Part shown: positions 1 to 53,297 of the stretch, piece by piece
Position numbering within the stretch: the stretch's first letter is position 1
Layout: each line of letters opens with the position of its first letter
Translations under genes and position numbers: made by a program
Assembly (NCBI GenBank): GCA_024720975.1
Contig: JANJXX010000003.1
Span: 68,555-132,554, forward strand
Length of the DNA: 64,000 bases
Source of the DNA: Thermoproteota archaeon
GTDB taxonomy: Archaea > Asgardarchaeota > Njordarchaeia > Njordarchaeales > Panguiarchaeaceae
Direction: 5' to 3'
The notes under the pieces: model-generated
The model's input: only the letters and a program-made list of their open reading frames with translations
What the model was told of the DNA's origin: nothing
Databases searched by the model: none

Positions 1-3000
1 GATCCAAGGCTCTGCTGTCCGACGAGTTCTGTGCTTAACCTGTATGCGAGATTATATGTGATATTAACATTTATCACTTCAATACCATAGAATGTTATGT
101 TCCCGTAACCCTTGATGGATGCATTGAAAATGCTATTTTCTATTAGATCCTTAAGAAACTTATAAGTCTCATTCCTGCTAAATACATACATGTCGACTAT
201 TAAACTGGATGTTTCTTTCGGTCGCACCAGAGCATCGCTTATGAACACTCTAGCAACGGTAAGTTGATCTCTGATTACTTCTATTGAGAATGGCCCAACA
301 GCGGCATCTACTCCGTACGGGTTCTTGAATGAAATTGATGTATTGAAATGATATGCTTTTATACCATTGATTATTTCCTCGCCTATGTACTTAAATTTAT
401 CTATGCTTACAGCAAGATTTGGAAGGGCACTAGCTTCGATAATCGCTTGAGTATTAGGAATTGATGTTATGTTGCTTAGCTTGAATGGCAAGGTTACATT
501 CACGCCAAATATTTCGGCTGTGACTTCTCCACTTATTACTAGCGAGTGAAGTTTACCCTCGATTATTCTCTTAAGAACCTCTGCTGTGTACTCTTTATTT
601 GATTTGTGTATCTTTATGTAAGCTTTTATTTGTTTTCCGTTGACAGTATTATACAAATCTATTGTAGAGTTTGAGCTCAAAGTTATTGCTGGAAGACTCC
701 AGCCAATAAGCGATATATTCACTTCATACTGAAATACCTTTACGGGCAAGTGATCAAGCCTAGCCGAAAGAGATATCTCTAGCAACGTCTCACTTTGATT
801 GTCATAAATTATGGAAATATCCTCTAGATCTAAACCTCCTAGTCCACCTATATCCTGATATCCACCCACGCCAACACTATCAGTTATATTCACTAGTAGT
901 CTTTGGATAAACGTTATTTGTGGAAATTCTACCCCAAATATTTTGATGCCCACTCTTCCATCGATTGAAGCATTTATAAGCCCATTACAAGCCAGATCAA
1001 CCAAGAAGTTTCTCATAGCCTCCTTTCCTTTGAATATGTATATGCTTACGCTTAGGAGTGTTACTTTCTTGCTTTCCAGTATGTATCTATCTTTCAACAT
1101 AATTTTTACTAGTCTCTGACCATCTCTGCTTAAGTATATGCTTGCATCCCAAAATTCTACCGTTATTCCCATCGTATTGTTAAATGTTACATTTACATCA
1201 AATCTAAAGGCATCCTCACCATCAACCTTTGTCTCTCCTGCATATTTAAATCCCGCGATACGGAATAGATTACTCAACCTAATTGAAGACAGAACTGACT
1301 GTTGAGTTTCCTCGGATGACATATCTATGCGAAAGTCTTTGAATGTTATCACTCCAAAGTCCCAATCAAATAACGACAAAGCTAATGTGGCATCTACGTA
1401 TAATTCACTAACGTTACCATAAACTAAGCTTCTAATCATATCTACAAATTCACTCGATTCGTTACGAAGCACTATTTTTAATATCACATCCTTGTTACCT
1501 GGTCCTCTTATTGGTTCCTCGAGTATAACTTGAACTGGCGGATTTATGCAGTCCTTCCTTAGGCTCACATCAGCAATTAGAAGACTTATAACCATCGGTA
1601 TAGGTATATCAACAACTGTCTTTATGCGTATTTCGATTCGATTTGGATACTCGGTCACATCAAGGAGCTCAACACTTCCACCGCCATAAGTCGATGTTAT
1701 ATCTTTCGTTCCTAAGAGCGTTAATGAGTCCATTAGCGAAACTACAAAATTCGTCTGAAAGTCTTCTAGGTTTATCTCAACTCCACCTAAGCATGCGGTA
1801 ATATTTCCACGTATGATCACATTAACTGCTTTTCCATGAAGTGTATCGTTTAAGAATTGACGTGCAGATTCCGTCTTGAATATATGTACATTAACAGCAA
1901 TCAATCTTGATTCGAACTGTGGGATTCGAGTGGATTGCGGTATGACAATTTCTAGTGCAGGTTCAATACTATTCGGAGGATATACATAGAGGTCTCCAGG
2001 TCCTATGTCTAATTCTGCACCAAATGGGTTAGTTATTGTCGCGTTAACATATATTGCATAGCCCTCTAGATTATTAATGACAACTTTACCAGCATATTTA
2101 ATGCCACTAATCTTGTAGAACTTAGATGCTTCTCCTGCTACTGGGACACTACCACTGGAGAGGGAAATCATGCCCCCTCCTGCGCGTATAGGGACGCTAT
2201 AGAACATTCTGCTGAGAAACTTCATGTCAATTGAACCAATGAACATTACATCACTAGTCCACGTGCCTTTGATGAAAGATTTTATAAATTCACCTATGTC
2301 TGGAGAGTCTTTTCTGATTCTTATCTCTATTGTTGGCTGGCAAGTTACTAGTCCTGTTTCTGACTCTTGATTAAGGTCTATATTTCTGATTTTCACACTT
2401 CCTATAGTACTAGAGTTGTATACTATGTTACCTCTAATTTCATATATTGCCAAGGGCATTCTTTTATAGGTCAGTGTAACAAGCGAGTTGACTATGAGGT
2501 ATTTATCTGTTGCGGTTATATTATACTTCATATCAGTTATATTGAACCCAGCCATAAGGCTCGATAAGTCGAACCCCTGCCTCATGAATTCGCCCATATC
2601 TACTGCAGGAGCACTCACTTGACTAGTAGAGAATGTAGATAGGTCTATCTTTTCTATCCATACGCCAGCAAAGTATACATCGGCTGTACCTGCCAAAGAG
2701 GCACTAAATTCATTGTTGTAGAGTAACCGGTTTAAGAATGCGTGTAAGTTCTCATTGTCTATAAAATCTGCACTTATGCGGAATGACCTGTTCTCATTAG
2801 GACTTACCAAGATTTTCTCATCTATTCTTACATTAAGAATTGATTCATCATTTTCCCCTAGTAGATCAATGTATAGTGGTCCAAAACCTATCGTCCAGTT
2901 TAATTTGTTCGTTAGTTCGATCGCTACATCAAATGAGTGCCTTACTTCACTTCCGATGATTTGTTCCCCTAAGTAGCTTATATCTAGATTGCTGATTCGA

Positions 3001-3986
3001 AGATTCTTACTCAGCAACTTAAATATCGCATCAAATATTGATGATGAAGCCCCTGGGGATTGCACTGGTGATAGAAAACCAGAGAATTGAGATATGTCAA
3101 ATTTTACCTCTGAATTTTCGACCTCTATTCCAAATATCTTCAAGGAGAGACTTCCTCTTAGCTTGCCACTGACTTTACCCTCTTTTATTGCAAGATTCAG
3201 GAAGTTTTCCAGGGCGCTTCCCTTTATAAAACGCAGATGTATTGATGTACTGAAGTTACCACTTGCTGAGTCTAGGATGTATTCCGGTATGGTTATATCA
3301 AGCACACGGCCGAGACTAGTTAGCAAGCTTAAACTGACATCCCTAATTTCTACGGTACCCACTTGGAGTAACTCGGTTGGAACGAAGCCACTTACGAATA
3401 CCTTTGCCTCGCAGAAGCTTTTTGTCTCGTTAGTGAGTTCGATCTCTTTGATCTCAAAACTTGGGAAGAAGCTCGAAATCGAGATCGATGCACCGCCTCC
3501 TGCCGGGCTTAGGTCAATTAGATCTTTTAACGAAATGTCTAATGGTATTCTAATAGCCTCTATCACCCCAAATAGTGATATCGGATATTCAACCCTTATT
3601 TTAGCATCTATTTGTTGGGAGGCTAGGTATGTCCTTATTAGTCTCTTCGTTGCCTCAGTTTTATATAATTTTAATGATACCGTTGATATACCCAACTGAC
3701 CTGGATCTAGTGTTATTGGACTAAGGTATCCAATACCTATTAACCCATCCGTCTGCGAATCTAATACTTTGAAGTTTATTGCAGGAACCCTCGTAGGTAA
3801 CCAGTGATTGTTTCTAATCAACATCTTTATGCTTAATATGCTAGAATCTTTCGTCTCACCAACGAATCTTATGGAGAGGGGCTTGAAGTCCATACCAAGG
3901 AGGGGCACTACTGAAATTACATTTACGGCAATATTACCTATAATTAGCAATATTACAATCGTCAATACTTTTCTCTTAAAGGTCAT
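1..3986 (-). CDS. Membrane-anchored protein built from at least nine tandem LEA_2/WHy-like (LEA14-type) repeats; partial, C-terminus lies beyond the window start
   Basis: Absent from the ORF track because it runs off the edge. Manual minus-strand translation from ATG 3986-3984 (MTFKRKVLTIVILLIIGNIAVNVISVVPLL...) stays open to position 1, about 1328 codons. An N-terminal hydrophobic anchor is followed by a ~140-145 aa unit recurring nine times. Each unit ends in a signature such as ALENFLNLAIKEGKVSGKLRGSLSLKIFGIEV, ARQFLNDTLHGKAVNVIIRGNITACLGGVEI, AMRNFLVDLACNGLINASIDGRVGIKIFGVEF or TYKFLKDLIENSIFNASIKGYGNITFYGIEV. Units contain NP(F/Y)G strands (ATITNPFGAELDI, ISFKNPYGVDAAV) like plant LEA14. 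CDS confidence is high; the family name is less certain. Confidence 0.8.
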   Translation of the reverse strand, partial: MTFKRKVLTIVILLIIGNIAVNVISVVPLLGMDFKPLSIRFVGETKDSSILSIKMLIRNNHWLPTRVPAINFKVLDSQTDGLIGIGYLSPITLDPGQLGISTVSLKLYKTEATKRLIRTYLASQQIDAKIRVEYPISLFGVIEAIRIPLDISLKDLIDLSPAGGGASISISSFFPSFEIKEIELTNETKSFCEAKVFVSGFVPTELLQVGTVEIRDVSLSLLTSLGRVLDITIPEYILDSASGNFSTSIHLRFIKGSALENFLNLAIKEGKVSGKLRGSLSLKIFGIEVENSEVKFDISQFSGFLSPVQSPGASSSIFDAIFKLLSKNLRISNLDISYLGEQIIGSEVRHSFDVAIELTNKLNWTIGFGPLYIDLLGENDESILNVRIDEKILVSPNENRSFRISADFIDNENLHAFLNRLLYNNEFSASLAGTADVYFAGVWIEKIDLSTFSTSQVSAPAVDMGEFMRQGFDLSSLMAGFNITDMKYNITATDKYLIVNSLVTLTYKRMPLAIYEIRGNIVYNSSTIGSVKIRNIDLNQESETGLVTCQPTIEIRIRKDSPDIGEFIKSFIKGTWTSDVMFIGSIDMKFLSRMFYSVPIRAGGGMISLSSGSVPVAGEASKFYKISGIKYAGKVVINNLEGYAIYVNATITNPFGAELDIGPGDLYVYPPNSIEPALEIVIPQSTRIPQFESRLIAVNVHIFKTESARQFLNDTLHGKAVNVIIRGNITACLGGVEINLEDFQTNFVVSLMDSLTLLGTKDITSTYGGGSVELLDVTEYPNRIEIRIKTVVDIPIPMVISLLIADVSLRKDCINPPVQVILEEPIRGPGNKDVILKIVLRNESSEFVDMIRSLVYGNVSELYVDATLALSLFDWDFGVITFKDFRIDMSSEETQQSVLSSIRLSNLFRIAGFKYAGETKVDGEDAFRFDVNVTFNNTMGITVEFWDASIYLSRDGQRLVKIMLKDRYILESKKVTLLSVSIYIFKGKEAMRNFLVDLACNGLINASIDGRVGIKIFGVEFPQITFIQRLLVNITDSVGVGGYQDIGGLGGLDLEDISIIYDNQSETLLEISLSARLDHLPVKVFQYEVNISLIGWSLPAITLSSNSTIDLYNTVNGKQIKAYIKIHKSNKEYTAEVLKRIIEGKLHSLVISGEVTAEIFGVNVTLPFKLSNITSIPNTQAIIEASALPNLAVSIDKFKYIGEEIINGIKAYHFNTSISFKNPYGVDAAVGPFSIEVIRDQLTVARVFISDALVRPKETSSLIVDMYVFSRNETYKFLKDLIENSIFNASIKGYGNITFYGIEVINVNITYNLAYRLSTELVGQQSLG

Positions 3987-3991
3987 ATACT

Positions 3992-3996
3992 TCACC
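3992..3996 (-). promoter_or_regulatory. Shine-Dalgarno-like GGTGA in the 10-nt spacer between the 1686-aa gene stop and the repeat-protein start
   Basis: Minus strand reads TAA GGTGAAGTAT ATG, so GGTGA sits 5 nt before the ATG. The same GGTGA/AGGTG motif recurs before other starts in the window (15012, 18697, 28427). Confidence 0.5.
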
Positions 3997-6900
3997 TTAA
4001 AGATCTAATTCTTCCGATTCGAATATCTCCAAGAACTCTTTCTCAATCTCTTCATAGCTTATTTCTCCTGTCACTGGCGCGGCTTTTTCATGGACACTAA
4101 ACCTACTTCTTGCAATGAACTTTCTGAGAGCTACAAAAATCGCCCCAACACAACTAAACGTACCAAGAACAATAAGACCATACATTAAACCGGCCTCACG
4201 AGCGGGTTTCACTTCAATCAATTTACTAAGCGATTTATCTTTGTAGTGCCCATTTCCAAGCACTTCGACTTTGATTAAATGCTCCCCATGCGAATCAGGA
4301 ACCCATATTATCTCTAGAGGTCCATTATAGATCGTTCTCACGAGTAGCCTATCACCGACAATTATCGACACAATAACACCAGCAACAGGCTCATTATCAT
4401 TGTCCGTAATATAAACTTTTATCCTAGCTGCATTCCCAATTTCCAATACGCTAGGCACATATACCTGGGCGTTCAAATCTTCTTCAAGAATAGTCAATTG
4501 CGTTTCAAATGAGCTGCTAGCATGAATACTCGTTGCTGAGCTTTGGATAATGAGTACATACTCGCCTGGTTTAAAGCTCATCCTTACTATAATTTTGGCC
4601 GTTCCATTTTCATCTGTTATTGTCGTTACCACTGGGTATTTCACATTACTACCATTTGAGAGATAAATTGATATAGGTATTCCCGCTAGAGTCTTATTAT
4701 CTTGATCGATAAGGATAACATAAATTTCTATGAAGTCGCCGTATTCTACCATTTGGGGTGATAGTGTAGCGATTATCTCGGTAGAAATCGCTTCTATAAC
4801 CAACGTGATCTTAGGACTATATACTAGCTCATAGAAGTTGCTCATAAGCTGTATCTCTAGGTAGTATGTTCCTGGTAGAAAATCTACATAGAATGGATAA
4901 GCAAGTCGTATTTGTGGTTTTAGAGTACCATTGTAAATGGTGTACAAGCCGCTGATAACGACGAATACTTGACCTGAATCATCTATAACTTCTTCTCCGT
5001 CGTTATCCGTAAGGAGTATTAATAGCTCCGAACTGTGTTGATAAGTTACAGTCCATGTGTAACTATTTGAGTATACCATCGCCCTTTCTTTGCATACATA
5101 CACGTAGTACGTATAGCAAGCTTCACCAACATAGAGGTCACTCCAAACTTTGACTATTATTGCTATTTGTTGGAGCGGAATGAACATATTCGTATTGACA
5201 CTAAGAACAGCTGTGCCATCTTTTACCTCCAGGATTTTACACAGAACAGTATTTCCTGAAACAATTGTTATATTAGCTATCCCTTGCACTATTGAGCAAT
5301 AATCGTCATCAAAGGCATGTATTTTTATTAATAAGGAATCTCCCCATTCAATGATACTTGCATTAGTACTTATATCGACGCCTTTGAGAACATCCTTCTC
5401 GACAATTAAATTGCGCGCCAGTGAAGCTTCATAAAACTTGTCACTTTCATAGATCATTATAATGTATACGTACTCGCCAGGAGTTAACCATTTCGGATAG
5501 CTACTACTGAGAATACGTACTACTAATCGACCGGATAACGAATAATTTCCTCCTAGCAAATAGATGTCATCATTTATTACTACATACACCTCGGCGTATG
5601 CGTTCACTGGCACACCGAGTTCGGTTGATACATTAGCGCAGATTGTACCACCATCAGAGAATACAATTGTAGCGTCGCTTGATTGAATTACCAAGTGAGC
5701 TTTGCTTACAGAAACCGCTACAAAGATCTCTGATGGATAATAACTCCTCACACTGTCCCCATCAAATGCTACACGAATTTCATATTCGCCCTCGGGCAGA
5801 TTCACAGCCCAGTTTATTATAGCCTTACCAGATCGGTCTGTATACCCTTCAGCTAGGATTTCTCCTCCGTACGATAGATACACATATGCGTTGGATACAG
5901 GATCTCCGAACATATCCACTAGGATTATCTGTGCCACGACTGTCTCGCTCCAAACCGGCGAATTTGTGCTTAGTGAAATTGTTATGCTCGTTAGTAACCA
6001 AACATGTACCCAAACAATGTTAGACTTTGATTTAAATACAGTGTCATTGAGACAAAACTCGAGTCTGAGGTAACCCGCTGGCGCGTGCAATGATGCCAGA
6101 TCCACAACCACTTGACTATTCTCTCCATTATAATATATTTCAATCGTATGCATTAAGCCACTTGAGTTATACACATTGATGTATACTTTTTGTCCTTCAA
6201 GGGGGATAATGCCTCCATCGTTTCGATATGCACTAAATACTATCGTGATAGTCTCGTTAGCTAGGGCATTTATTTCCGATGCATTGAATGAGAAAATTAC
6301 CTCTTCCTCCCTAATGGAAAGGCGCAAACAATATACAGAGAATGAGGAGTCACTTTCCCTATCATTATCCAGATCATAAATTGTTATCTCAATGTCGCAA
6401 TCCCCAGCACGCAGTGGAGTGTCTATGATTAGAAGCAGCTCGAATAGAGTTCCATTTGTGTACAATACTTGAGCTTGTTTCACTAGCACTATACTATAAA
6501 TCTTTATTACTATTGTTTCATTAACTCCGCTTGGATCACTCACAGATATTCTAATACTTAGGCCCTCGTCAGCCTCAATAATACCATCTCCAGTGCCACT
6601 ACTAAGATACTCTGATACACTTACATTGTGTATAACCGGTCCGTCGATGTCATCATCTAGAATTTCCCCGTATGTTATGAATGAGCGTGCTACGGCAGCA
6701 TCTCCCTGCCAATCATTATCTTTATCGTATGCTATTACTTCAAGAGAGAATGCAGACCCGACATAGTTTATCCAAATATTCCTCGGGATTATAATATATG
6801 CCGTATTTCCATTCCAGTAAATTGAATTGTTGTTGTATGTTATTGCTACATTGTACTTTTGGAAGTACACTATAAATGTCACAGAGCCTACTCCACTTTC

Positions 6901-9057
6901 TTGATCAGTTATAACGGCCCATATAACTAAGTCCTCGTTACTTGAGTCATATATCGTTATATAATTTCCAGGGAAGACTATTTCAGGCGGGTTTGGATCA
7001 TCATCAACAAGCTCGACATAGAATCTTTGACTTATAACAGCATTGCCAGCTTTGTCGATACACTTTGCCTCCCAATACAGTTTCTTCCCTACATGTGGTT
7101 TCCATTCACTTGCGGATATCACTATCCGAAACTCTCCACTTATATAACTTGCTACAATCCAATCACTCCAGTTTGTGCCACCATAACTATATCGTATTAG
7201 CACGCGCTCAACACCACTTATCTGGTCGCTGCACACAACACTAAGAACTATATTATTAGTCGCATTGTCTAGGAACACTGTTCCAATTTGAGGTGAATAG
7301 CTAAGAATTCTTGGGGCTATTGTGTCTATCTGAATCGGTCCTTTTCTAGCGCTCTCATTCTCATTACCGGCGCGATCTACTGCGACGACACTTATGCTCC
7401 AAACACCCGACGGCAATCCAATGGTTGCATAGAGTTGCTCGTATGGACCATACCAGTTAAAAAGAGAACCACTGCTATAGTTATAGACTCGTACCATATA
7501 GCATCTTATGCCACTCATACTATCCGTACTTTGACTCCATGCTATGTATACATTACTAGTATTGTACCATTTCGTGGAACTAGGTTGGGGATTTATGTTT
7601 ATTATCTCAGGTTTCGTTGGTGGTACAAAATCTACGTTTATTCCATGCTCCCAACAAAGCTCCCAAACTTTAGTTCTACTTAGATCAGTTCTCCAAGAGA
7701 GCAACCCATTTATAAACTCGAATATTGTTGTGGGTTTATAAGTTCTTACAACATACCAAATATCCGAAATACTGATACTCAGCGAATCTCCAATGCCATC
7801 GCCATCTTGATCATCATCACTTGAATCATATAGATCCCATAGAACAGCGGCGACACTACTTGCGACATCAAAATCATTGCGTGAGTTATCAGAATCGTAA
7901 AGCGTTTCTAAATCGCGAAGTTCAAAGTTTTCACTGCTTATGTAATAGCGCTTTATAACTTCTGAGAGAAATATCGACCAACCAACAACCCAAGCTGTTT
8001 TTGGGTCTGTGTGAACATTAAAGTTATAGTTGCGCTCAAAGCTAGGTAATACGCTGCGTTGTGCCAGCAAAAATTGTGCAAAGGCCATGAAGAACTCCGT
8101 GTAGTTTGTAGCAGCTGCTGCCCATAGTCTTTTATCGGTAGTGTTATAGAAATAAACGCTAGTTTGGGCTGGGTATGTTATATTTAATCCGGGTAAGCTG
8201 CTTTCACCTAAGACGCTGATTGCAAAATCTCTAGCTAGCATTGCAAATAACATGATCTCTCCAGCTGGTCCTCCAAGAACATATACAATGGATTGAGGGG
8301 GTGTTACATAGCTAACGGTTGTGGCATCATTCTTATAAAGTTGTTGCCCGGATATTGGATCGGTCCAATAAGAACCTTGGATATATAGACTGTACGCACC
8401 TCCACCTAAATTGGAGTAGTCGTTATACATTCGGTATAGGTAAACTCTGTTGCTCGGATCGTATATAGCAACAACATTGGATATATCTGTATAAAATTGA
8501 AGAACAGGGTCTCTATTGCTAAGCTCCCCCCAATCAAACGCATCGTAGACTACACAGAAAGCTCCTTGACTGTCGGTTCTCGTAGATATTATAAATTGCC
8601 CACTGGGAGTATAACCGTCGCTATAGGGCTCTCCAGAGTCCTGATCCCAAACGTCCACTAAGATGCCCTGTATAGTTTTATACGCACCAGAGGATGTCCG
8701 TGAATATGGATCTCTGACTTTGACATAACCATAAAGGCGAACATCGCCGCTAGGAATACTAGGTGTTCCTGAGGTTATGTAGTAGTATAGATAGGCTAAT
8801 ATGACTGGATCCGTGTTTACCCTAGCTTTAAGTATATCTGCCTCGTTGGCATGCTTGAGCTTTGTTTTGGAGTGCGATACCACAATTACATTTTGTGCAT
8901 TCTTGGTACCTCCTCTGTGAGCATCGGTATGCAAATCATCTGCTGCTTTGGAATCCACCCGCAGGTTTTTTATGTTTGCACTAATGATTGGATCTACTAT
9001 CACTGCTAAAAATATTATTGAGACGAGCATAAACCTAATTATTTGAATTTTGTCCAA
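3997..9057 (-). CDS. Giant (1686 aa) type-I membrane-anchored envelope protein with Ig/FN3-like beta-domain array
   Basis: Track ORF. N-terminal signal/anchor (KIQIIRFMLVSIIFLAVIVDPIISA). Single C-terminal TM (GLMYGLIVLGTFSCVGAIFVAL) followed by a roughly 50-aa acidic tail ending EFLEIFESEELDL. FN3/Ig-like segment with SGIRCYMVRV...AVDRAGNENE...IDTIAPRI. Acidic cluster DSSDDDQDGDGIGD and many N-x-S/T sequons. Start is TTG at 9057 or ATG at 9030. Confidence 0.85.
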   Translation of the reverse strand: MDKIQIIRFMLVSIIFLAVIVDPIISANIKNLRVDSKAADDLHTDAHRGGTKNAQNVIVVSHSKTKLKHANEADILKARVNTDPVILAYLYYYITSGTPSIPSGDVRLYGYVKVRDPYSRTSSGAYKTIQGILVDVWDQDSGEPYSDGYTPSGQFIISTRTDSQGAFCVVYDAFDWGELSNRDPVLQFYTDISNVVAIYDPSNRVYLYRMYNDYSNLGGGAYSLYIQGSYWTDPISGQQLYKNDATTVSYVTPPQSIVYVLGGPAGEIMLFAMLARDFAISVLGESSLPGLNITYPAQTSVYFYNTTDKRLWAAAATNYTEFFMAFAQFLLAQRSVLPSFERNYNFNVHTDPKTAWVVGWSIFLSEVIKRYYISSENFELRDLETLYDSDNSRNDFDVASSVAAVLWDLYDSSDDDQDGDGIGDSLSISISDIWYVVRTYKPTTIFEFINGLLSWRTDLSRTKVWELCWEHGINVDFVPPTKPEIININPQPSSTKWYNTSNVYIAWSQSTDSMSGIRCYMVRVYNYSSGSLFNWYGPYEQLYATIGLPSGVWSISVVAVDRAGNENESARKGPIQIDTIAPRILSYSPQIGTVFLDNATNNIVLSVVCSDQISGVERVLIRYSYGGTNWSDWIVASYISGEFRIVISASEWKPHVGKKLYWEAKCIDKAGNAVISQRFYVELVDDDPNPPEIVFPGNYITIYDSSNEDLVIWAVITDQESGVGSVTFIVYFQKYNVAITYNNNSIYWNGNTAYIIIPRNIWINYVGSAFSLEVIAYDKDNDWQGDAAVARSFITYGEILDDDIDGPVIHNVSVSEYLSSGTGDGIIEADEGLSIRISVSDPSGVNETIVIKIYSIVLVKQAQVLYTNGTLFELLLIIDTPLRAGDCDIEITIYDLDNDRESDSSFSVYCLRLSIREEEVIFSFNASEINALANETITIVFSAYRNDGGIIPLEGQKVYINVYNSSGLMHTIEIYYNGENSQVVVDLASLHAPAGYLRLEFCLNDTVFKSKSNIVWVHVWLLTSITISLSTNSPVWSETVVAQIILVDMFGDPVSNAYVYLSYGGEILAEGYTDRSGKAIINWAVNLPEGEYEIRVAFDGDSVRSYYPSEIFVAVSVSKAHLVIQSSDATIVFSDGGTICANVSTELGVPVNAYAEVYVVINDDIYLLGGNYSLSGRLVVRILSSSYPKWLTPGEYVYIIMIYESDKFYEASLARNLIVEKDVLKGVDISTNASIIEWGDSLLIKIHAFDDDYCSIVQGIANITIVSGNTVLCKILEVKDGTAVLSVNTNMFIPLQQIAIIVKVWSDLYVGEACYTYYVYVCKERAMVYSNSYTWTVTYQHSSELLILLTDNDGEEVIDDSGQVFVVISGLYTIYNGTLKPQIRLAYPFYVDFLPGTYYLEIQLMSNFYELVYSPKITLVIEAISTEIIATLSPQMVEYGDFIEIYVILIDQDNKTLAGIPISIYLSNGSNVKYPVVTTITDENGTAKIIVRMSFKPGEYVLIIQSSATSIHASSSFETQLTILEEDLNAQVYVPSVLEIGNAARIKVYITDNDNEPVAGVIVSIIVGDRLLVRTIYNGPLEIIWVPDSHGEHLIKVEVLGNGHYKDKSLSKLIEVKPAREAGLMYGLIVLGTFSCVGAIFVALRKFIARSRFSVHEKAAPVTGEISYEEIEKEFLEIFESEELDL

Positions 9058-9265: not shown

Positions 9266-11062
9266 CTATACTAGAATGGCTAATAAACTCAGCAGTACTG
9301 ATAGGGCGAATGATAGTAGCATGTCTCTGATAAACACTTTAACATAGACGATAGATAGTCCCTTAATTGCTGCCGCATTGTTTCTACCTAAAACACGTAG
9401 ATTAATAACTTTTGCCTTGTTTGACACTTCTGCCTCAGTCAAATTTTCAATGGCCTTCCTAACGGTTTGTATTGTGCATTCCTTAAGGATTTCGCCCTTT
9501 TTCTCACCTAATATTGTGTACAGCTTATTTGCGTCCAACGCGCAGACTGTGTGCGTGTCTGTAGATAGTAGTTCTACCGACTCAGCTCCAAACTCCTCTC
9601 TTATTTTCTCTTTCATGTCTAAGTAGAACTTGGGATTTATATTGTTGGAGTCATAGGTAATGAGTATATGCAATTTTTGTCCTATTTTCATCGCAATTGC
9701 TACAATGCCGAGTCCTCCCAGACCATCTTTAGGCTTGACTTGTTCGCATTTACACTGATCCACCCCGATCATGAACTTCTTTGGTTCACAGACTTTAGTT
9801 ATAGCATTTCTAATGAGTTTTCCAAGCATGTGATACTCTTTACTATCAATGTCAAGCACTAAACCTTCCACTGGTTCGGATAGAGAATTATGGGCATCTA
9901 CCAGAAATACATTCTTTCCTGACATATGACCAAGTTCCATTGCAAAATAACCAAGTGACGTTTCTAAATCATCCGAATTCTGAGGAGCGTTAGAGGCTAG
10001 CAGATATGTTTGATTTCCGAGTGATAATTTAGTTACATGCAAGGATCCATTATTAAATATTTCAGGTTCACATATTTCATCGTACCAAAAATTCTCATCA
10101 AAGATGCACTTTATTTCCCGCTCGATTACATCCAAGAGCTTGAATTGCTCCGCCAGGGACGGTAAATTGGCATCATGTGAGGATGCACCCTTGAGAAACA
10201 AAGTGGGAATTTTTAGCCTATTCTTCATCTCTCTGAAGAGTATCTCCGGAAAATCCGATGAACCGGAGTTAAGCAAGGGTCCTGGGTGTATTTGAGCCCC
10301 AACGATTGCGAATAGTGGCTCTTTTCTATCTTTGGATCTGAAAGCTGTTATTGCCACTGGTATTTCGCGATCGATGCTCATTCTCTCTAGTATTTTCTCG
10401 AACTCATCACGTTTTCGATCAAGTTTAAGCATTAGGAATGCTCTTACGAGCTTCAGTGTGCCAATTTTATTTGTAGTCGGCCATATTTTTTCATTGGAGT
10501 AAATTATTGCAAGCGCGGTAAGTATTACCAGAGCGATTAAGAGTGTCACCTTTGCGAAAGGTGTAATAAAATTCAAAGTTGGGTTATACTGTGCTGTTAA
10601 ACAATTGGTGCTTCGGATTAATGATAAACTTATGATGGAGACATTCGAAAAGACAAAGAAGGCCGACTTCCAAATGCCCCAATTTACCAATCCTAGCACA
10701 ATATATAGCTCCAGGACTGATAGTATGCAGAGAAAGATTGGACAAAACCACGCACGCAACAGAGTTAAAATTAATATGAGGTTAAGGAAACCTAGTAGTA
10801 TATTAGAAATGGCAAGCGCTCTTCTACGATTTAGAGCTCTTACCTCTTGTGGTAGCTTTAATAATAGTAATGGCATGAAAACAGCTGCAACTGTTAGGAT
10901 ATAGACATCTATTGATGTGACATCTACCCTGTAAAGATTCCATAGAATTACAAAGTATATAGAGAACTGAGCCATTAGTGTGAGAAGAGGAGATTTAAGA
11001 CTAGGGAAAAGAAACATGAGGCGATACAAACGATTGATCTCTTTCATCTCATTTTCGCTCAA
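9266..11062 (-). CDS. Archaeal polytopic membrane protein with large C-terminal soluble domain (DUF2070-like, tentative)
   Basis: 598-aa ORF. The N-terminal ~200 aa are multi-TM. The C-terminal domain has His/Asp-rich motifs IHPGPLLNSGSSDFPE, GASSHDANLPS, LVDAHNSL and STDTHTVCAL, and there is a final C-terminal TM. The family name is from memory of size and architecture only. Confidence 0.6.
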   Translation of the reverse strand: MSENEMKEINRLYRLMFLFPSLKSPLLTLMAQFSIYFVILWNLYRVDVTSIDVYILTVAAVFMPLLLLKLPQEVRALNRRRALAISNILLGFLNLILILTLLRAWFCPIFLCILSVLELYIVLGLVNWGIWKSAFFVFSNVSIISLSLIRSTNCLTAQYNPTLNFITPFAKVTLLIALVILTALAIIYSNEKIWPTTNKIGTLKLVRAFLMLKLDRKRDEFEKILERMSIDREIPVAITAFRSKDRKEPLFAIVGAQIHPGPLLNSGSSDFPEILFREMKNRLKIPTLFLKGASSHDANLPSLAEQFKLLDVIEREIKCIFDENFWYDEICEPEIFNNGSLHVTKLSLGNQTYLLASNAPQNSDDLETSLGYFAMELGHMSGKNVFLVDAHNSLSEPVEGLVLDIDSKEYHMLGKLIRNAITKVCEPKKFMIGVDQCKCEQVKPKDGLGGLGIVAIAMKIGQKLHILITYDSNNINPKFYLDMKEKIREEFGAESVELLSTDTHTVCALDANKLYTILGEKKGEILKECTIQTVRKAIENLTEAEVSNKAKVINLRVLGRNNAAAIKGLSIVYVKVFIRDMLLSFALSVLLSLLAILV

Positions 11063-11142: not shown

Positions 11143-11853
11143 CTAATAGTATTCATAATCTGAATAATCTTCAGACTCGTTGTATCCGTGCTCCACTATT
11201 GTGTATACTATAGCAGTTTTATACCCCAGCATACGACGCATAAATTTACTACGAAAGACTATTGCAAAAAGTATCCCGCCTATGATGCCACCAATGTGCG
11301 CATAGTGAGCGATAGTTGGAAATATGCCCACAATAGCAAACAATGTGAAGAGTGCCACTAGCATTGTGATCATTGCCCATGCGGGAAGAACAAGGAATGC
11401 GAAAAAGACAAACATGGCTATTCTTCTTTGAGGATAGAGAACAGCATAAGCCCCTAAAATTCCAAAGACTGCTCCTGATGCTCCAAGCGCTGGGATGTCT
11501 TTGTAGGGACATAAGAGGATGTGCATAAACGCACCAAGAAGCCCAGAGAGAAAGTACAGAAGTGCAAATGCCTTATGACCAAAATTGCGTTCACACTCTG
11601 GCCCAAACATATATAGAGCGTACATGTTAAAGAATATGTGAAGAAAATCAGCATGGAGAAACATGTGAGTTATTATAGTCCAAAGCATGGCACCGCGTAG
11701 AACTGCATTCGGACGCAGAGCGAAGTAATTGATCATAAGCGCTGGATTAATGAGTTCTAAAACGAAGATAACTAGGTTTGATATTATTATAGATTTAACC
11801 ACAATAGGATTGAAACGATAGGGTTCTAGTCCGTGTTCGTACCAGAAAACCAT
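11143..11853 (-). CDS. Rhomboid-family intramembrane serine protease
   Basis: HADFLHIFFNMYALYMFG (H..H..N motif), catalytic GASGAVFGILGAY (GxSG) and AHYAHIGGIIGG (catalytic His helix); 6-7 TM profile. Confidence 0.85.
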   Translation of the reverse strand: MVFWYEHGLEPYRFNPIVVKSIIISNLVIFVLELINPALMINYFALRPNAVLRGAMLWTIITHMFLHADFLHIFFNMYALYMFGPECERNFGHKAFALLYFLSGLLGAFMHILLCPYKDIPALGASGAVFGILGAYAVLYPQRRIAMFVFFAFLVLPAWAMITMLVALFTLFAIVGIFPTIAHYAHIGGIIGGILFAIVFRSKFMRRMLGYKTAIVYTIVEHGYNESEDYSDYEYY

Positions 11854-45490: not shown

Positions 45491-48400
45491 TCAGAGTTTT
45501 TGCATTTTGCGCTTCTTAATAAATAACAGTCCCACAAATACTACAGTAACTAAAATCGTTATAATCAGCGATATGAGGAATGGGCCAAGGATTATTATAG
45601 TTACTTTCATTGGCTTCCACAGATAAATGCTTCTTGATGCACTAAAGCCCCCAACACTGGCCCTTATTTCATATTCACCTAAGTCTAGTCTCTCATATTC
45701 TCTTACAATTCCTTGATAAAGGACGATTTTGCACTTTCCTTTTGGCGCATCTAGCTCATAAGTCCTTGAGTCTCTTCCAATTATCGTGACTTTAGCGAAT
45801 TCGGGCTCCCTTAGATCATAGAGAACTTCGATAGTCAAGGTATACAGTATATGTATCTCGGACAGGTCTTCAGCAAATATTGGATACTCCAACAAGGTAT
45901 CTATTAGCCAAATTCTCGAAAATCCATCAGCTCCCAGTGTAAAGATTTGTGAGTTGATCACAGTAACGTTGGAGAACATCATTGCTAATATCGTTAGATC
46001 GATGAGTTCAGACGCATAAGCATCTATTCTATAGCCCATTTGTTCATTGTAAAATTTAGTAACTCCCAGTATATTCTTAAGCTCTACGTGACCATAAACA
46101 AATACATCAACAATTCCAACTTGTGATTTACTGATGTATAGTCTGGTTCCATAGCCTGGATTTAATAGGCGCACAAAGGATGAAGAAATTTCCAGGTCGC
46201 TTGGGCCTCCTACAATGAGATATAATGATCTTGAATTATTCATCAGGATACTTGAAGACGCATTTATGAGAATTATTGACGCGCTTAAATTTTCAAGACT
46301 TACTAAAGCTCCATGAACCGTAATGTTGAGCATAGTTATCTCTACTTGACTAACACTTATGTTCCACGGCGCTCTATCAGCTATGTCAGTTGTTGTTGAC
46401 TTGGGTAAAGAACCTTCTCCTAGATTTCTTAGAGTTAATCCAAGGTTAACGATGCTGAAGTTTAAACCAATCTTTGATTCATTTATAACAATGTCACCAC
46501 CATATCTCATAGAGACGGAACCCACAGTACTAGACTTGATAATTACTGTTGAGGTATACGATGAAACATCCACTTTATGTACCTTGGAGTCGCGTAATTC
46601 TAATCTCGAGAACTCCCCAACTACAAAGCTCCACCTTGATATTTTTGTATCGATAAATAATCCCCTTGAGAATAGCGGGATGTCTTCTGGGGCTGATGCT
46701 TTGTATAGATATGTTGGTTGAACCCCCTGAGCATAGGCTTCAGTGAAGATTATATATATCGATAACCCTATCTCTGACCCAACTATTGAGAACTCCGTGA
46801 GATAAGGCATGAAATCTCCAATATTTGAGTTTAATAACACGACATCACAAAGAACCAATCGAGCTTTTTCAACGTAACTCGATGATATGTATGCCTCCGA
46901 TCCTTCTGCTAGTATTTCATTTATTCTAGAATTTTCTACGAGAATTTTCGATTCCACTAGGTTCATAGTACGTATTTTGGAATTTCGTATGCTTATGTTT
47001 GAACGATATGCATCGATGCTTACCTCGAGAATCGTTGTGTTTATTATCCTCAGGTTTTTGGAGATATCCAAGGAAATCGGCTTGTATGCCCCAACACCAT
47101 CGATATTTACAACATCCTCGATCTGGGATAATCCAAGATAGAGGCGCGTAGCTGAGTTCCTAATTATCGCTGAGACGTTCGCTCCTCCTTCAAGATGCAC
47201 CTCTGAGTATCCATAAACTCTACTATTTTCTAAGATCAACATTCCATTGTAGGCAATTCCTACCGATATCACATCAGACTCGATAATCTCTAATTCAACG
47301 CGTCCATAAATTCCGAGTCCGATTGCATACCAACCAGTTATGGATGTATTAACCAACGTGAGCTTTATTGGTGTTGATGCGTTAACAAATTCGCTTAGGG
47401 TCGCATTCTCATAGTACCCAGGCCTTAGCTTTAGTCTATAACTACCCTCAAGAAATCCTAGTATTATGTTTGCTGTCGTCTTTGTCATAAAAACGTCTGA
47501 TTCAATAATATATGTGTATATAGACGTAGTTTCATTGAAGGCAACGCTAGAGCCCCAGATTATTGTTATTGACGATAATTTTGAATTGTATATCACTAGT
47601 TTTGATCCGTAAATTCCCATTAAGTCGCTAACTATAACGTTTTTAACTCTCGCTGTGGCATTGGATATGTAAAGTTGCGATAAAAGCGAATTCTCCACGG
47701 TGAATTCTCCTAGAGATAGATCTAAGATCCAAGACCCATGAGAGTTTACAACATTTATTCGCCAACTCTCATCAACATTTAGAACATCTGAATTCCAACT
47801 GGATATGTACCCAGGTTTAAGGTTGCGAATTACGGCATTTTCTTCTGATATTGCTATGTATATTGTGACCACGGATTTATCAATAAAAATGTCTGTACCA
47901 CTTATTGCAGCTACAACACCTCCATAAGATGACAAGATACGTGCTTTAGCAGCATTGCCAAGGCCAGCTACGATATCAAATACCACGCTATTCAGGTTAA
48001 TCTCGGCATTTCCAAGGACATAAACAGTGTTCAGAATTGATCTATAAGCATTTGTCTTAGATCCCCCCGATGCAAATATTGTATCAATTATTGACTCTAC
48101 TATATCCACACTGGAATCATGTGTTACACGTACTAGTGACGCCTCAGAGGATTCAATCGATAATCGGCTGTTGTAGAAGAGATATATCCAGCCTAGGATT
48201 GAGCTTTTTACAACTATATTGCTATCGTAAGAAAGTATATCCCAGCCAAGTACATATACATTAGACAGATTTATCGACCAACCACCGCTTTTAACAAGAA
48301 TCATATAATGTATATCGCCTGGCTTTAGATTCTCGATCTCCACATTTTCAAGCTTATAAACGAGACCGAACCAGATCATGCTGTCTCTTGCCAGTATGTT

Positions 48401-52421: not shown

Positions 52422-53297
52422 CTACAAAGTAAAAGGAGGCCTGCTCAGTTTTATAGGCTTTCCATTAACAAAAGTTTCGATTTCAACATAATCGGAGAGA
52501 ATCCCTGCTCTGACCTTTTTCATTAATACTTCCTCTACTTGGAAAACTCCCGCTCCATCGGTCATATTAATTTCTATCCTTATTGGCTTCTGATGTCCCT
52601 TCTTTATATCAACCTCAACTATGCTCAGCGCTGACAAAGAATGTATATCGACTTTTCCAATGCTGTAGGGACGCCTGCTACGGCCAGCGGCCATATCACA
52701 ACCATCAGCAATTTTAATCACAGAACCTTCCACAGTATATGCAAACACATCTTCATCGTGGCTGTATATTGCATTTGCTACATGCGCATAGATAAGCCAC
52801 TTCTTTTCTAACGGCTCGTCTCTCCAGATTCTCCTGACGTACTTCCAAATAATCTTATTTGCTACAAGCAACGAGAAGCCATAGTGAAATTCTCTGTGAA
52901 CCATATTACCTAAGTCGTGAATAAACGCTGCCAGTGCCACAACTGCAGCAGCGTCGTCGAAAGAGCCAACATTTGACGATACAATATTTGGTTGCACATG
53001 ATCCTTGAGTAATATTAGAATCTTCAGCGCATTTCTAGTTGTTATTATTGCATGCGCACGTCCATGATCATTATACTTTAGGTACTGGACTATTATGTGA
53101 TTGGTGGCATTCTGTGCAGCTTTTATTTCTGGATCGCGGAGCATGGTCTCAATGAGGGCCATAGTCCTACTCAGACCGTTCTGCCTTGGAATATCTCTTA
53201 GCTCACTTACGATGTTCTTAATGCGCATTTTTTCTGAAATCTGAGGCTTTATTTCCAGGTAGTCGCTCATGGAATACACACTCTTACAACCAAACAA
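52422..53297 (-). CDS. HD-domain metal-dependent phosphohydrolase
   Basis: NDHGRAHA ... AAFIHDLGN ... IYSHDED ... IADGCD. Confidence 0.65.
   Translation of the reverse strand: MFGCKSVYSMSDYLEIKPQISEKMRIKNIVSELRDIPRQNGLSRTMALIETMLRDPEIKAAQNATNHIIVQYLKYNDHGRAHAIITTRNALKILILLKDHVQPNIVSSNVGSFDDAAAVVALAAFIHDLGNMVHREFHYGFSLLVANKIIWKYVRRIWRDEPLEKKWLIYAHVANAIYSHDEDVFAYTVEGSVIKIADGCDMAAGRSRRPYSIGKVDIHSLSALSIVEVDIKKGHQKPIRIEINMTDGAGVFQVEEVLMKKVRAGILSDYVEIETFVNGKPIKLSRPPFTL

What the first reader, a model, noticed from the sequence alone, without database searches (positions are those of the whole stretch)
1..3986. Nine or more tandem LEA_2/WHy-like domains on one membrane-anchored archaeal protein, missing from the ORF track
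The minus strand from 3986 to the window edge is one unbroken frame of about 1328 codons. After a single N-terminal hydrophobic anchor it consists of a ~140-145 aa unit repeated nine times. Each unit ends with an amphipathic helix followed by a G-rich strand. The nine endings are: ATKRLIRTYLASQQIDAKIRVEYPISLFGVIE; ALENFLNLAIKEGKVSGKLRGSLSLKIFGIEV; LHAFLNRLLYNNEFSASLAGTADVYFAGVWIE; IGEFIKSFIKGTWTSDVMFIGSIDMKF; ARQFLNDTLHGKAVNVIIRGNITACLGGVEI; SEFVDMIRSLVYGNVSELYVDATLALSLFDWDFG; AMRNFLVDLACNGLINASIDGRVGIKIFGVEF; TAEVLKRIIEGKLHSLVISGEVTAEIFGVNV; TYKFLKDLIENSIFNASIKGYGNITFYGIEV. The units also contain NP(F/Y)G strands as in LEA14. LEA_2/WHy domains normally occur singly or in pairs in small desiccation or stress proteins. 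A string of nine or more, tethered outside the membrane, suggests a structural envelope role such as a spacer, sheath or matrix component. The repeats are diverged at the DNA level, so this is an old array rather than a recent amplification.
Basis: partly seen in the sequence, partly recalled or inferred. Interest (0 to 1): 0.72.

Follow-up and report, generated by a model that had tools for sequence, protein, structure and literature searches.

The report
Giant archaeal surface protein of LEA-2 domains
The window holds the first 45% of a 2962-residue membrane-anchored archaeal surface protein built from 17 LEA-2-type beta-sandwich domains plus a conserved end-piece of unknown fold: a real, conserved gene and an unusually long archaeal version of an architecture already known from fungi.

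Summary
Window 1-3986 (minus strand) is an unbroken 1328-codon frame, and all nine quoted unit endings are present at 140-156 aa spacing. The source contig shows the whole gene: 2962 aa, one N-terminal membrane helix, 17 units of about 140 aa, and a conserved C-terminal region of about 500 aa with no detectable relatives.

The LEA-2 reading is supported:
- Pfam hits DUF3712 (an out-of-register LEA-2 model) and LEA_2 on the full protein.
- The best PDB fold matches include TMEM106B, Af_0446 (3BUT) and LEA14 (1XO8).
- Seven of the nine window units match an external LEA_2 profile. U6 is moderate and U4 is weak.

- The units alternate between two subtypes, so the array grew from a two-domain module.
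- "Missing from the ORF track" is a window-edge artefact.
- Arrays of 15 or more LEA-2 domains are already known in fungi, and arrays of 6-13 occur in other archaea.

Orthologs at 62% and 40% identity keep exactly 17 units and the neighbouring giant Ig-like gene. The function is inferred, not shown: a glycosylated surface tether that displays the conserved end-piece. I rate it a new variant of a known kind, of moderate interest.

The parts
1..3986 (-). First 1328 codons (45%) of a 2962-codon gene. The gene continues past window position 1 and is complete on the source contig at L001:12005-20893.
   Evidence: Open frame. Identical to the N-terminus of the 2962-aa product on JAWBRX010000005.1. 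In GenBank as MEM2222375.1, hypothetical protein.
3992..3996 (-). GGTGA Shine-Dalgarno-like motif, 5 nt before the ATG, within the 10-nt gap after the upstream gene's stop codon (3999-3997).
   Evidence: Sequence read directly. Co-transcription with the upstream gene is inferred from this spacing.
3894..3968 (-). N-terminal membrane helix (about aa 7-31), preceded by the basic stretch MTFKRK. Read as a signal-anchor with the N-terminus inside the cell (type II). It has no cysteine lipobox and no obvious cleavage site.
   Evidence: Hydropathy scan finds a single N-terminal segment at aa 6-32. The same feature is present in orthologs P0001 and L009 (sequence). The orientation is inferred.
3537..3890 (-). 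Unit 1 (aa 33-150). This LEA-2 domain starts directly after the membrane helix.
   Evidence: External LEA_2 profile E 6.6e-9. hhalign 96% to Pfam-certified LEA_2 segments.
3099..3536 (-). Unit 2 (aa 151-296): G/S-rich linker plus LEA-2 domain.
   Evidence: External LEA_2 profile E 1.4e-8. hhalign 95%. phmmer 1.5e-7 to U7.
2631..3098 (-). Unit 3 (aa 297-452): LEA-2 domain, odd (A) subtype.
   Evidence: phmmer 4.8e-12 to U9. External LEA_2 profile E 4.1e-7. hhalign 73% to LEA_2 segments. The DUF3712 hit at aa 406-505 starts here.
2193..2630 (-). Unit 4 (aa 453-598): even (B) subtype and the weakest unit. It fits the period and aligns end to end, but homology is only marginal.
   Evidence: hhalign 83% to U14 at best. 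22% to external LEA_2 segments. External profile E 0.027. The DUF3712 hit covers its first strands. No structure model was made.
1749..2192 (-). Unit 5 (aa 599-746): LEA-2 domain, A subtype, with a TNPFG motif.
   Evidence: [quoted passage not shown]
1329..1748 (-). Unit 6 (aa 747-886): B subtype, highly diverged. Probably a LEA-2 fold.
   Evidence: No significant link to sister units (31% at best). 80% over 105 in-register columns to external LEA_2 segments. AF2 gives the same strand and helix order at pLDDT 56-78. External profile E 0.069.
900..1328 (-). Unit 7 (aa 887-1029): LEA-2 domain, A subtype. This is the unit modelled first.
   Evidence: AF2 domain pLDDT about 90 with LEA-2 topology. 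Foldseek top hits are 8b7d and 3but, with 1xo8 fifth. phmmer 5.5e-19 to U9.
471..899 (-). Unit 8 (aa 1030-1172): LEA-2 domain, B subtype.
   Evidence: hhalign 90-95% to U10, U14 and U16. 78% to LEA_2 segments. External profile E 2.4e-5.
51..470 (-). Unit 9 (aa 1173-1312): LEA-2 domain, A subtype, with a KNPYG motif.
   Evidence: phmmer 7e-19 to U7. hhalign 94% to LEA_2 segments. External profile E 1.3e-6.
3..50 (-). First 16 codons of unit 10, cut by the window edge.
   Evidence: The full protein continues with units 10-17 and a C-terminal region of about 500 aa.
3997..9057 (-). Partner gene: a 1686-aa protein with an N-terminal signal-like segment, Ig-like domains (Big_1, CarboxypepD_reg) and a C-terminal membrane helix followed by an acidic tail. 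It lies immediately upstream on the same strand.
   Evidence: Pfam and sequence. The ortholog lies directly upstream of the LEA-2 ortholog in L009 (32% identity over 1663 aa). Paralogs also lie downstream in L009 and L008. Sequons: 24 observed against 13 expected.

Best explanation
SHOWN.
- The window carries the 5' 45% of a conserved 2962-codon gene. Its source MAGs are labelled Korarchaeota or Crenarchaeota in NCBI. Its closest orthologs come from MAGs labelled Njordarchaeota, an Asgard-affiliated lineage.
- The product has a short basic N-terminus, one membrane helix and 17 consecutive units of about 140 aa. [quoted passage not shown]
- After the units comes a C-terminal region of about 500 aa with no detectable relatives. 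It is the best conserved part of the protein.
- Units 3-16 alternate between two subtypes.
- The gene sits 10 nt downstream of a giant Ig-like membrane protein gene, and this pairing recurs in orthologous loci.

INFERRED.
- The array arose by roughly sevenfold amplification of a two-domain module, which is the usual archaeal LEA-2 architecture. Its length then became fixed.
- The N-terminus stays in the cytoplasm, and everything after the helix is outside the cell and N-glycosylated.
- The 17 domains act as a long, flexible, beads-on-a-string stalk. At about 4 nm per beta-sandwich this is roughly 70 nm, and more if the linkers extend.
- The stalk holds the conserved C-terminal region away from the membrane, where it binds a surface, another cell or the co-encoded Ig-like giant.
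- In short, it works like the giant repeat adhesins and tethers of bacteria, but is built from LEA-2 domains.
For: Gene reality and extent:
- Open frame and full 2962-aa gene on the source contig.
- Colinear orthologs of 2973 aa (61.6% identity) and 2966 aa (40.5% identity) without stops.

LEA-2 identity:
- Pfam DUF3712 E 6.9e-18 and LEA_2 E 1.4e-6, both above curated cut-offs.
- DUF3712 is a published out-of-register LEA-2 model, which explains why its hit straddles units.
- AF2 model of U7 with domain pLDDT about 90 and LEA-2 topology.
- Foldseek ranks 1, 2 and 5 of 350,542 chains are TMEM106B (8b7d), Af_0446 (3but) and LEA14 (1xo8).
- An HMM of eight external Pfam-certified LEA_2 segments places 17 regularly spaced envelopes on the protein, 13 of them matched at E < 1e-3 over at least 50 profile columns.
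- hhalign gives 73-96% for 8 of the 9 window units.
- The profile built only from window units retrieves just 56 proteins out of 1.84 billion. Of 10 sampled, 9 carry LEA_2 and/or DUF3712 above cut-off.

Two-unit module: odd-odd hhalign mean score 67 against 28 for odd-even, permutation 1/5000.

Fixed length: 17 units at the same positions in all three orthologs. Full-length cluster members are all 2962 aa, or 2973-2974 aa in the P0001 cluster.

Outside location: 75 N-X-S/T sequons against 29 expected, as in the two other giant surface-type proteins of the window. Cytoplasmic neighbours have 0-0.7 per 100 aa.

Linkers: pLDDT below 50 in both models.

Functional end-piece: identity to L009 is 52-59% for U16 to C2 against 27-43% for the body units.

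Partner: conserved adjacency.
Against: - No expression, localisation or binding data exist, so the function is inference from architecture.
- TM-scores to solved LEA-2 structures are only 0.33-0.45 with rmsd about 7 A. Generic Ig-like folds such as ApaG score nearly as well.
- A sequence-only profile search against PDB finds nothing.
- U4 is not convincingly LEA-2. U6 rests on a pLDDT 56-78 model and an 80% hhalign probability.
- The structure MSAs consisted only of paralogous units from the window (9 and 6 rows).
- The C-terminal region has no recognisable fold or family, so calling it a binding head is a guess based on its conservation.
- Flexible linkers could let the chain fold back rather than extend.
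- Type II orientation was not predicted with a dedicated tool.

Confidence: 0.6

Rival explanations
1. Static envelope component. Many copies, together with the Ig-like giants, form a glycosylated canopy, sheath or matrix. They set a fixed distance between the membrane and an outer layer, and do not engage an external target.
For: The unit number is fixed at 17 across orthologs at 40-62% identity, as expected of a molecular ruler. The protein is heavily sequon-enriched. It is co-encoded with one to three giant Ig-like membrane proteins. No S-layer gene was recognised in the window, although only 64 kb was seen.
Against: The linkers are predicted to be disordered, which suits a tether better than a rigid spacer. 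The strongest conservation is at the membrane-distal end, not spread along the body. Nothing is known about abundance.
Confidence: 0.2
2. Lipid handling. [quoted passage not shown] This could run between the cell membrane and a second membrane, such as a partner cell or vesicle.
For: The LEA-2 superfamily assignment. The lipid-groove hypothesis is published for 3BUT, TMEM106B, Vac7 and Tag1. The first domain abuts the membrane helix, as in those proteins (envelope starting at aa 36). A member of the wider clade has been described as genome-reduced (title of PMC12411855).
Against: The hypothesis itself is not experimentally established, and the paper notes that the groove is absent from the plant NMR structures. 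Domains separated by disordered linkers of about 25 aa cannot form a continuous conduit, unlike VPS13-type bridges. Heavy glycosylation and the Ig-like partner fit a surface protein.
Confidence: 0.13
3. Stress protectant in the sense of plant LEA14/WHy proteins. The domains protect the membrane or envelope against desiccation, heat or osmotic stress.
For: The same domain superfamily. Tethering to the membrane would place the domains where protection is needed.
Against: Plant LEA_2 stress proteins are small and have one or two domains. A fixed 17-unit array, a conserved orphan end-piece and an Ig-like partner are not explained by bulk protection. The relatives retrieved are membrane-anchored arrays, not small soluble proteins.
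Confidence: 0.04
4. Not a functional gene: an assembly chimera, a decaying pseudogene or a chance open frame.
For: The frame is cut by the window edge. Two word-index homolog searches over the repeat region returned nothing.
Against: At least five separate MAG assemblies encode a full-length 2962-aa protein at 90% identity or more. Full-length colinear orthologs exist at 62% and 40% identity without stops. Unit boundaries and gene neighbour are conserved. The search failures reflect the word index, because the exact protein is in the collection.
Confidence: 0.01

Closest known systems
Fungal DUF3712 / Tag1-type multi-LEA-2 proteins (e.g. Ustilago maydis UM15053 with 15 LEA-2 domains; yeast Tag1 with 3)
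   Same: Single N-terminal membrane helix followed by a head-to-tail run of LEA-2 beta-sandwiches. Best Pfam hit is DUF3712, out of register with the true domains. Comparable unit numbers: 15-22 in fungal-type hits against 17 here. The window-unit profile hits such proteins directly, e.g. Sorochytrium at 3034 aa, E 5.5e-14.
   Different: Those are eukaryotic and face the lumen of vacuoles or endosomes, with domains reported as gapless. This protein is archaeal and most likely extracellular. It has disordered linkers of about 25 aa between domains, alternating A/B subtypes, an orphan C-terminal region of about 500 aa and a conserved Ig-like partner gene. No phylogeny was done, so the relationship (descent, transfer or parallel amplification) is open.
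Typical archaeal tandem LEA-2 proteins (A. fulgidus Af_0446, PDB 3BUT; T. litoralis WP_148290494.1, 311 aa)
   Same: Archaeal, N-terminally anchored, with LEA-2 domains outside the cell arranged as a two-domain A-B pair. 3BUT is the second-best structural match to unit 7. The two-unit super-repeat here looks like that pair multiplied.
   Different: 2 domains in about 300 aa against 17 domains in 2962 aa. No extra C-terminal region. Some are predicted lipoproteins, whereas this protein has no cysteine in its anchor. Sequence similarity is too low for a plain HMM search against PDB sequences.
Plant LEA14 / NHL / WHy proteins (Pfam LEA_2, PDB 1XO8, 1YYC)
   Same: [quoted passage not shown] 1XO8 ranks fifth in the fold search. 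The NP(F/Y)G-type motif after strand 2 occurs in some units.
   Different: Those are small stress-associated proteins with one or two domains. The motif is present in only 2 of 9 window units. Sequence identity is 12-13%.
Other archaeal-type multi-LEA-2 arrays found here (P0005, P0014, P0022, P0026 and others, 6-13 units; Promethearchaeota giants P0016, P0020, P0037)
   Same: N-terminal membrane helix plus repeated LEA-2 units, with Pfam LEA_2 and/or DUF3712 hits. The one locus examined (P0026) is archaeal, with an archaeal proteasome alpha subunit, HerA and an Arf/Ras-family GTPase.
   Different: Less than 30% identity and only local matches. Fewer units. A different C-terminal cap domain (YDVYFDDxDG...DEY) that is unrelated to this protein's C-terminus. 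None appears to be described in the literature I could search.
Giant bacterial repeat adhesins built from Ig-like domains (SiiE, LapA and BapA types); comparison by analogy only, from general knowledge
   Same: Several thousand residues, made mostly of tandem beta-sandwich repeats that form a long stalk, with a distinct distal region and a surface location.
   Different: A different domain family (Big/cadherin-like rather than LEA-2). They are secreted by type I systems and retained at the outer membrane, not anchored by an N-terminal helix. No homology is claimed.

Membership tests
LEA-2 superfamily (Pfam LEA_2 PF03168 / DUF3712 PF12505; LEA14, WHy, NHL, TMEM106B, Vac7, Tag1) | Significant match to the family's sequence models | tested here: met
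   Full protein: DUF3712 65.6 bits (cut-off 24.1) and LEA_2 29.1 bits (cut-off 25.4). Window part alone: DUF3712 37.9 bits, but no single unit hits LEA_2 on its own. An HMM of external Pfam-certified LEA_2 segments matches 7 of 9 window units at E 7e-9 to 6e-4.
LEA-2 superfamily | [quoted passage not shown] | tested here: met
   AF2 models of U7 (pLDDT about 90) and U5 (82-91) show exactly this order, and U6 does at pLDDT 56-78. The feature is as defined.
LEA-2 superfamily | Closest solved structures are LEA-2 domains | tested here: met
   Foldseek ranks 1, 2 and 5 are 8b7d (TMEM106B), 3but and 1xo8, at E 6.6e-6 to 4.9e-4. TM-scores are modest (0.33-0.45), and ApaG-type sandwiches rank 3-4.
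LEA-2 superfamily | Every one of the nine window units is a LEA-2 domain | tested here: inconclusive
   U1-U3, U5 and U7-U9 are supported. U6 has 80% hhalign, a moderate model and external-profile E 0.069. U4 has 22% hhalign, E 0.027, 83% to U14 at best, and no model.
LEA-2 superfamily | Single membrane helix directly preceding the first LEA-2 domain (type II topology) | tested here: met
   There is one hydrophobic segment at aa 6-32, and the first domain envelope starts at aa 36-37. The orientation itself is inferred from the basic N-terminus and was not computed with a topology predictor.
LEA-2 superfamily | [quoted passage not shown] | not testable with these tools
   Model coordinates are not returned by the structure tool, so no surface analysis was possible.
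WHy domain (SMART) / NPN-type motif | Match to the SMART WHy model and the conserved NP-type motif after strand 2 | tested here: inconclusive
   No SMART library was available. The motif is present in U5 (TNPFG) and U9 (KNPYG) only, and degenerate in U7 (NNTMG) and U3 (TNKLN) (sequences).
Plant-type LEA stress proteins (functional class) | Small hydrophilic or stress-induced protein with one or two domains | tested here: not met
   2962 aa, 17 domains, membrane-anchored, with a conserved extra C-terminal region. Expression was not testable.
Archaeal S-layer proteins | Match to known S-layer families or lattice-forming domains | tested here: not met
   There are no Pfam or NCBIfam hits other than LEA_2 and DUF3712. 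Lattice formation is not testable here.

The most novel reading that the evidence does not exclude
Membrane-anchored multi-LEA-2 arrays may be an Asgard-lineage invention that eukaryotes inherited. On this reading, the Njordarchaeia-type 17-domain protein, the Promethearchaeota giants of 2-2.6 kaa and the archaeal arrays that hit DUF3712 strongly are the prokaryotic relatives of the eukaryotic Tag1/DUF3712 family, and more distantly of TMEM106B and Vac7. In the archaeon the chain would work at cell-cell or cell-vesicle contacts, tethering a second membrane and possibly handling lipids there. It would then be a candidate component of the membrane-contact biology invoked for eukaryogenesis. The supporting hints are thin. 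Pfam's 'fungal' DUF3712 model is the best hit. The window-unit profile reaches fungal and Anaeramoeba arrays at E 1e-14 to 1e-4, whereas only about a dozen of its 56 hits are short proteins of one or two LEA_2 domains. Several hits come from Asgard MAGs. No phylogeny was made. The DUF3712 preference may simply reflect that any tandem LEA-2 array fits a two-domain-spanning model better.
Probability: 0.1. Interest if true: 0.8.

Novelty: new variant of a known kind. Interest (0 to 1): 0.5.

Why it matters
It gives a domain-level description to a gene that is annotated only as "hypothetical protein" in every MAG where it was found. It also shows that the LEA-2 fold, best known from small plant stress proteins and from TMEM106B, Vac7 and Tag1, is used in archaea to build very long, length-fixed surface molecules.

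The published picture of archaeal LEA-2 proteins is a tandem pair of about 300 aa. This family, along with the other 6-13-unit arrays seen here, extends that picture. The A/B alternation suggests how it happened: amplification of the pair.

The lineage is affiliated with Asgard archaea, whose surface structures and cell-cell contacts are of wide interest. The cassette of this protein plus the giant Ig-like partner is therefore a concrete candidate for surface filaments or contact structures that could be sought in cryo-ET and proteomics of hot-spring enrichments.

It is not a new kind of system. The domain, the type II anchoring and long concatenation are all already known.

Tried and rejected
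1. Plain BLAST self-comparison of the 1328-aa fragment found no internal repeats. Profile methods were needed.
2. Pfam scan of each unit on its own gave no LEA_2 hit.
3. The word-index homolog search failed twice on the repeat region, although the exact protein is in the collection. The exhaustive HMMER search and the exact look-up solved this.
4. phmmer of the protein, and hmmsearch of the unit profile, against PDB sequences gave only chance hits.
5. Is the C-terminal region related to the cap domain (YDVYFDDxDG...DEY) of the other archaeal arrays? Rejected, with all E-values above 0.1.
6. Are the C-terminal regions C1-C3 further LEA-2 units? C1 is marginal (63% to U12, and a weak envelope at 2575-2662 with E 0.014). 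C2 and C3 show no relation.
7. The C-terminal profile against PDB, Pfam and NCBIfam gave nothing.
8. A first three-unit alignment for modelling was discarded because MAFFT left U6 uncovered.
9. The fold search of the two-unit model returned only generic tandem beta-sandwiches at TM about 0.2.
10. Do the rhomboid protease and DUF2070 genes upstream belong to the cassette? Rejected, because they are not conserved in L009.
11. Is the window's C25-peptidase giant a homolog of the giant downstream in L009? Rejected.
12. Partner protein against PDB sequences gave nothing useful.
13. A search for the assembly accessions in the literature found none.

Full report
OBSERVATION.
- The minus strand of window 1-3986 is an unbroken frame of 1328 codons. 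It starts at ATG 3986-3984, which lies 10 nt after the TAA stop of the upstream gene and 5 nt after a GGTGA motif.
- The ORF is absent from the mechanical ORF list only because that list omits ORFs that run off the window.
- At the DNA level there is no repeat with the ~430-nt period, so the units are old and diverged.

THE WHOLE GENE.
- An exact-sequence look-up of the upstream 1686-aa protein found the source contig, JAWBRX010000005.1 of assembly GCA_038843635.1. Window 1-9057 is identical to it.
- There the gene runs to 2962 codons. GenBank lists the product as MEM2222375.1, a hypothetical protein, and at least five separate MAG assemblies encode a full-length 2962-aa protein at 90% identity or more.
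- The window therefore shows only the first 45% of the gene.

HOW MANY UNITS, AND ARE THEY ALIKE.
- Pairwise phmmer shows that U3, U5, U7 and U9 are clearly homologous (1e-12 to 5e-19), and U2 joins them. U4, U6 and U8 are nearly undetectable.
- An HMM iterated on the full protein finds 17 units up to residue 2446.
- An HMM built only from LEA_2 segments of unrelated proteins also places 17 regularly spaced envelopes.
- For a non-circular test I cut the three-way ortholog alignment into units and compared the unit profiles with hhalign. All units except U4 (83% at best) and U6 (31% at best) join one homology network at 90% probability or more.
- Odd and even units form two classes. The odd-odd mean score is 67, even-even is 34 and odd-even is 28. 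A permutation of the parity labels reaches the observed contrast in 1 of 5000 trials.
- The array is therefore a two-domain module repeated about seven times (U3-U16), with U1, U2 and U17 at the ends.

IS IT LEA-2?
- On the window fragment, Pfam reports only DUF3712 (E 2.6e-9), at aa 406-505, which straddles U3/U4. No single unit hits LEA_2 on its own.
- On the full protein, DUF3712 reaches E 6.9e-18 in three stretches, and LEA_2 itself scores 29.1 bits (cut-off 25.4) in unit 16.
- Levine's analysis (bioRxiv 10.1101/2021.03.12.435176) explains the pattern. DUF3712 is a LEA-2 model out of register, running from strand 4 of one domain to strand 3 of the next.
- AlphaFold2 of U7, using the nine window units as its alignment, gave a domain pLDDT of about 90. 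[quoted passage not shown]
- Among 350,542 PDB chains, the best Foldseek matches were the TMEM106B luminal domain (8b7d) and Af_0446 (3but). LEA14 (1xo8) was fifth. TM-scores were modest, at 0.33-0.45.
- A second model, of U5-U6, gave U5 the same fold at pLDDT 82-91. U6 had the same strand and helix order at pLDDT 56-78.
- Each unit's ortholog profile was compared with an alignment of eight Pfam-certified LEA_2 segments from other proteins. The window units scored 96, 95, 73, 22, 95, 80, 87, 78 and 94% for U1-U9, over 90-108 in-register columns except for U4.
- Reciprocally, the profile built only from window units retrieved just 56 proteins out of 1.84 billion. Of ten sampled, nine carry LEA_2 and/or DUF3712 above the curated cut-offs.
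- Membership in the LEA-2 superfamily is therefore well supported for the protein and for seven of the nine window units. It is moderate for U6 and weak for U4.

ORTHOLOGS, LINEAGE AND NEIGHBOURS.
- P0001 (2973 aa) is 61.6% identical over the full length and has 17 units.
- A scan of GTDB species genomes found fragments in a MAG titled Candidatus Njordarchaeota. It also found a full-length ortholog on a 90-kb contig titled uncultured Nitrososphaerota.
- That ortholog (2966 aa) is 40.5% identical, colinear, and has 17 units at the same positions.
- The source MAGs carry Korarchaeota, Crenarchaeota or Thermoproteota labels in NCBI. The literature records that the placement of Njordarchaeia relative to Korarchaeota has been unstable, and that it is now treated as an Asgard lineage (PMC10989867, PMC12411855). 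I did not place the MAG myself.
- Unit number is fixed. Full-length cluster members are all 2962 aa, or 2973-2974 aa in the P0001 cluster.
- Conservation is highest at the membrane-distal end. Identity to the 40% ortholog is 52-59% for U16, U17, C1 and C2, against 27-43% for the body units.
- The last 500 aa or so have only three hits in 5.8 billion proteins, all fragments of orthologs. They have no match in Pfam, NCBIfam or PDB sequences.
- The upstream 1686-aa gene encodes a protein with a signal-like N-terminus, Ig-like domains and a C-terminal membrane helix. Its ortholog lies directly upstream of the LEA-2 ortholog in L009 (32% identity over 1663 aa). Paralogs also lie downstream in L009 and L008.
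- The rhomboid and DUF2070 genes further upstream are not conserved neighbours.

LOCATION.
- The protein has one hydrophobic helix after a basic N-terminus.
- It carries 75 N-X-S/T sequons against 29 expected from its composition. The enrichment is similar in the Ig-like partner (24 against 13) and in a 1988-aa C25-peptidase giant (48 against 20). Cytoplasmic and polytopic neighbours have 0-0.7 per 100 aa.
- I infer a type II orientation with an extracellular, N-glycosylated body.

MECHANISM.
- The anatomy above is shown. The following is inferred.
- The 17 beta-sandwiches joined by disordered linkers would form a long flexible stalk. At about 4 nm per Ig-like domain (general knowledge) this is roughly 70 nm.
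- The stalk would display the conserved C-terminal region far from the membrane, probably working together with the co-encoded Ig-like giants in adhesion, cell-cell contact or a surface coat.
The last is effectively excluded.

COMPARISON AND NOVELTY.
- The premise that LEA_2 domains occur only singly or in pairs is out of date. Fungal DUF3712 proteins with 15 gapless LEA-2 domains, and lengths above 4000 aa, are published.
- Some of the hits come from Promethearchaeota MAGs. The one locus I examined is archaeal.
- What is new here is the specific family:
  - the longest array seen among the archaeal-type hits;
  - a strict count of 17 units;
  - an A/B super-repeat that mirrors the typical archaeal tandem pair;
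  - linkers between domains;
  - an orphan conserved end-piece;
  - a conserved Ig-like partner gene.
- I found no paper that describes archaeal arrays of this kind.
- I rate it a new variant of a known kind, with interest 0.5.
- The most novel reading not excluded is an Asgard origin of the eukaryotic Tag1/DUF3712 arrays, with a role at membrane contacts. It rests on thin hints and no phylogeny (probability about 0.1).

LIMITS.
- The structure alignments contained only paralogous window units.
- TM-scores to solved LEA-2 structures are modest.
- U4 was not modelled.
- No coordinates were available for surface analysis.
- The taxonomy rests on record titles.
- The function is inferred from architecture and gene context alone.

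Noticed in passing
window 45491-51457 (-): A 1988-aa protein with a Peptidase_C25 (gingipain-type) domain at aa 226-593 (E 1.3e-56). It is sequon-enriched, with 48 observed against 20 expected. This is a third giant, probably surface-exposed, protein in the same 64 kb. It is not homologous to the giant downstream of the LEA-2 ortholog in L009.
   Followed up: partly
window 3094-3699 (+): A 201-aa ATG-initiated ORF lies antisense inside the LEA-2 gene, spanning units 1-2. The same ORF is present on the source contig. It is probably a chance frame and was not tested for conservation in orthologs.
   Followed up: no
window 3997-9057 (-), about aa 414-424 of the product: The Ig-like partner protein carries an acidic DDDQDGDGIGD motif that is conserved in the L009 ortholog at 32% overall identity. 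Its N-terminal 480 aa have no Pfam hit. This could be a calcium-binding site in an uncharacterised head domain.
   Followed up: no
window 9266-11062 (-) and 11143-11853 (-): A DUF2070 membrane protein and a rhomboid-family intramembrane protease lie just upstream of the two giant single-pass membrane protein genes. Rhomboids shed single-pass surface proteins in other organisms, but this adjacency is not conserved in L009.
   Followed up: partly
window 53381-55246 (-): A 621-aa protein with nSTAND3/AAA_16 NTPase signatures lies next to an HD-domain protein at 52422-53297. This could be a STAND-type signalling or defence gene.
   Followed up: no
proteins P0007, P0043, P0016, P0020, P0037 (hits): The profile made from the archaeal units reaches eukaryotic multi-LEA-2 proteins (Sorochytrium, 3034 aa; Anaeramoeba, 1414 aa). 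It also reaches Promethearchaeota giants of 2-2.6 kaa that share a conserved N-terminal cytoplasmic segment, LKKLREVRKKLQESL. This hints at an Asgard-eukaryote connection for such arrays. No phylogeny was made.
   Followed up: partly
whole window: There are no tRNA genes and no Rfam family at gathering threshold in 64 kb. G+C is even at 38-42%.
   Followed up: yes
L011 8001-12317 (P0026 locus): The precomputed Pfam record lists a family named LEA-2_4 (PF26150) for this other archaeal array, so Pfam now holds further LEA-2-type models. None of them was reported for the window protein at E up to 10.
   Followed up: no
tool behaviour: The word-indexed protein search returned nothing for two queries from the repeat region, although the exact protein is in the underlying collection. 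'No homologs' from that tool should not be read as absence for queries of this kind.
   Followed up: yes
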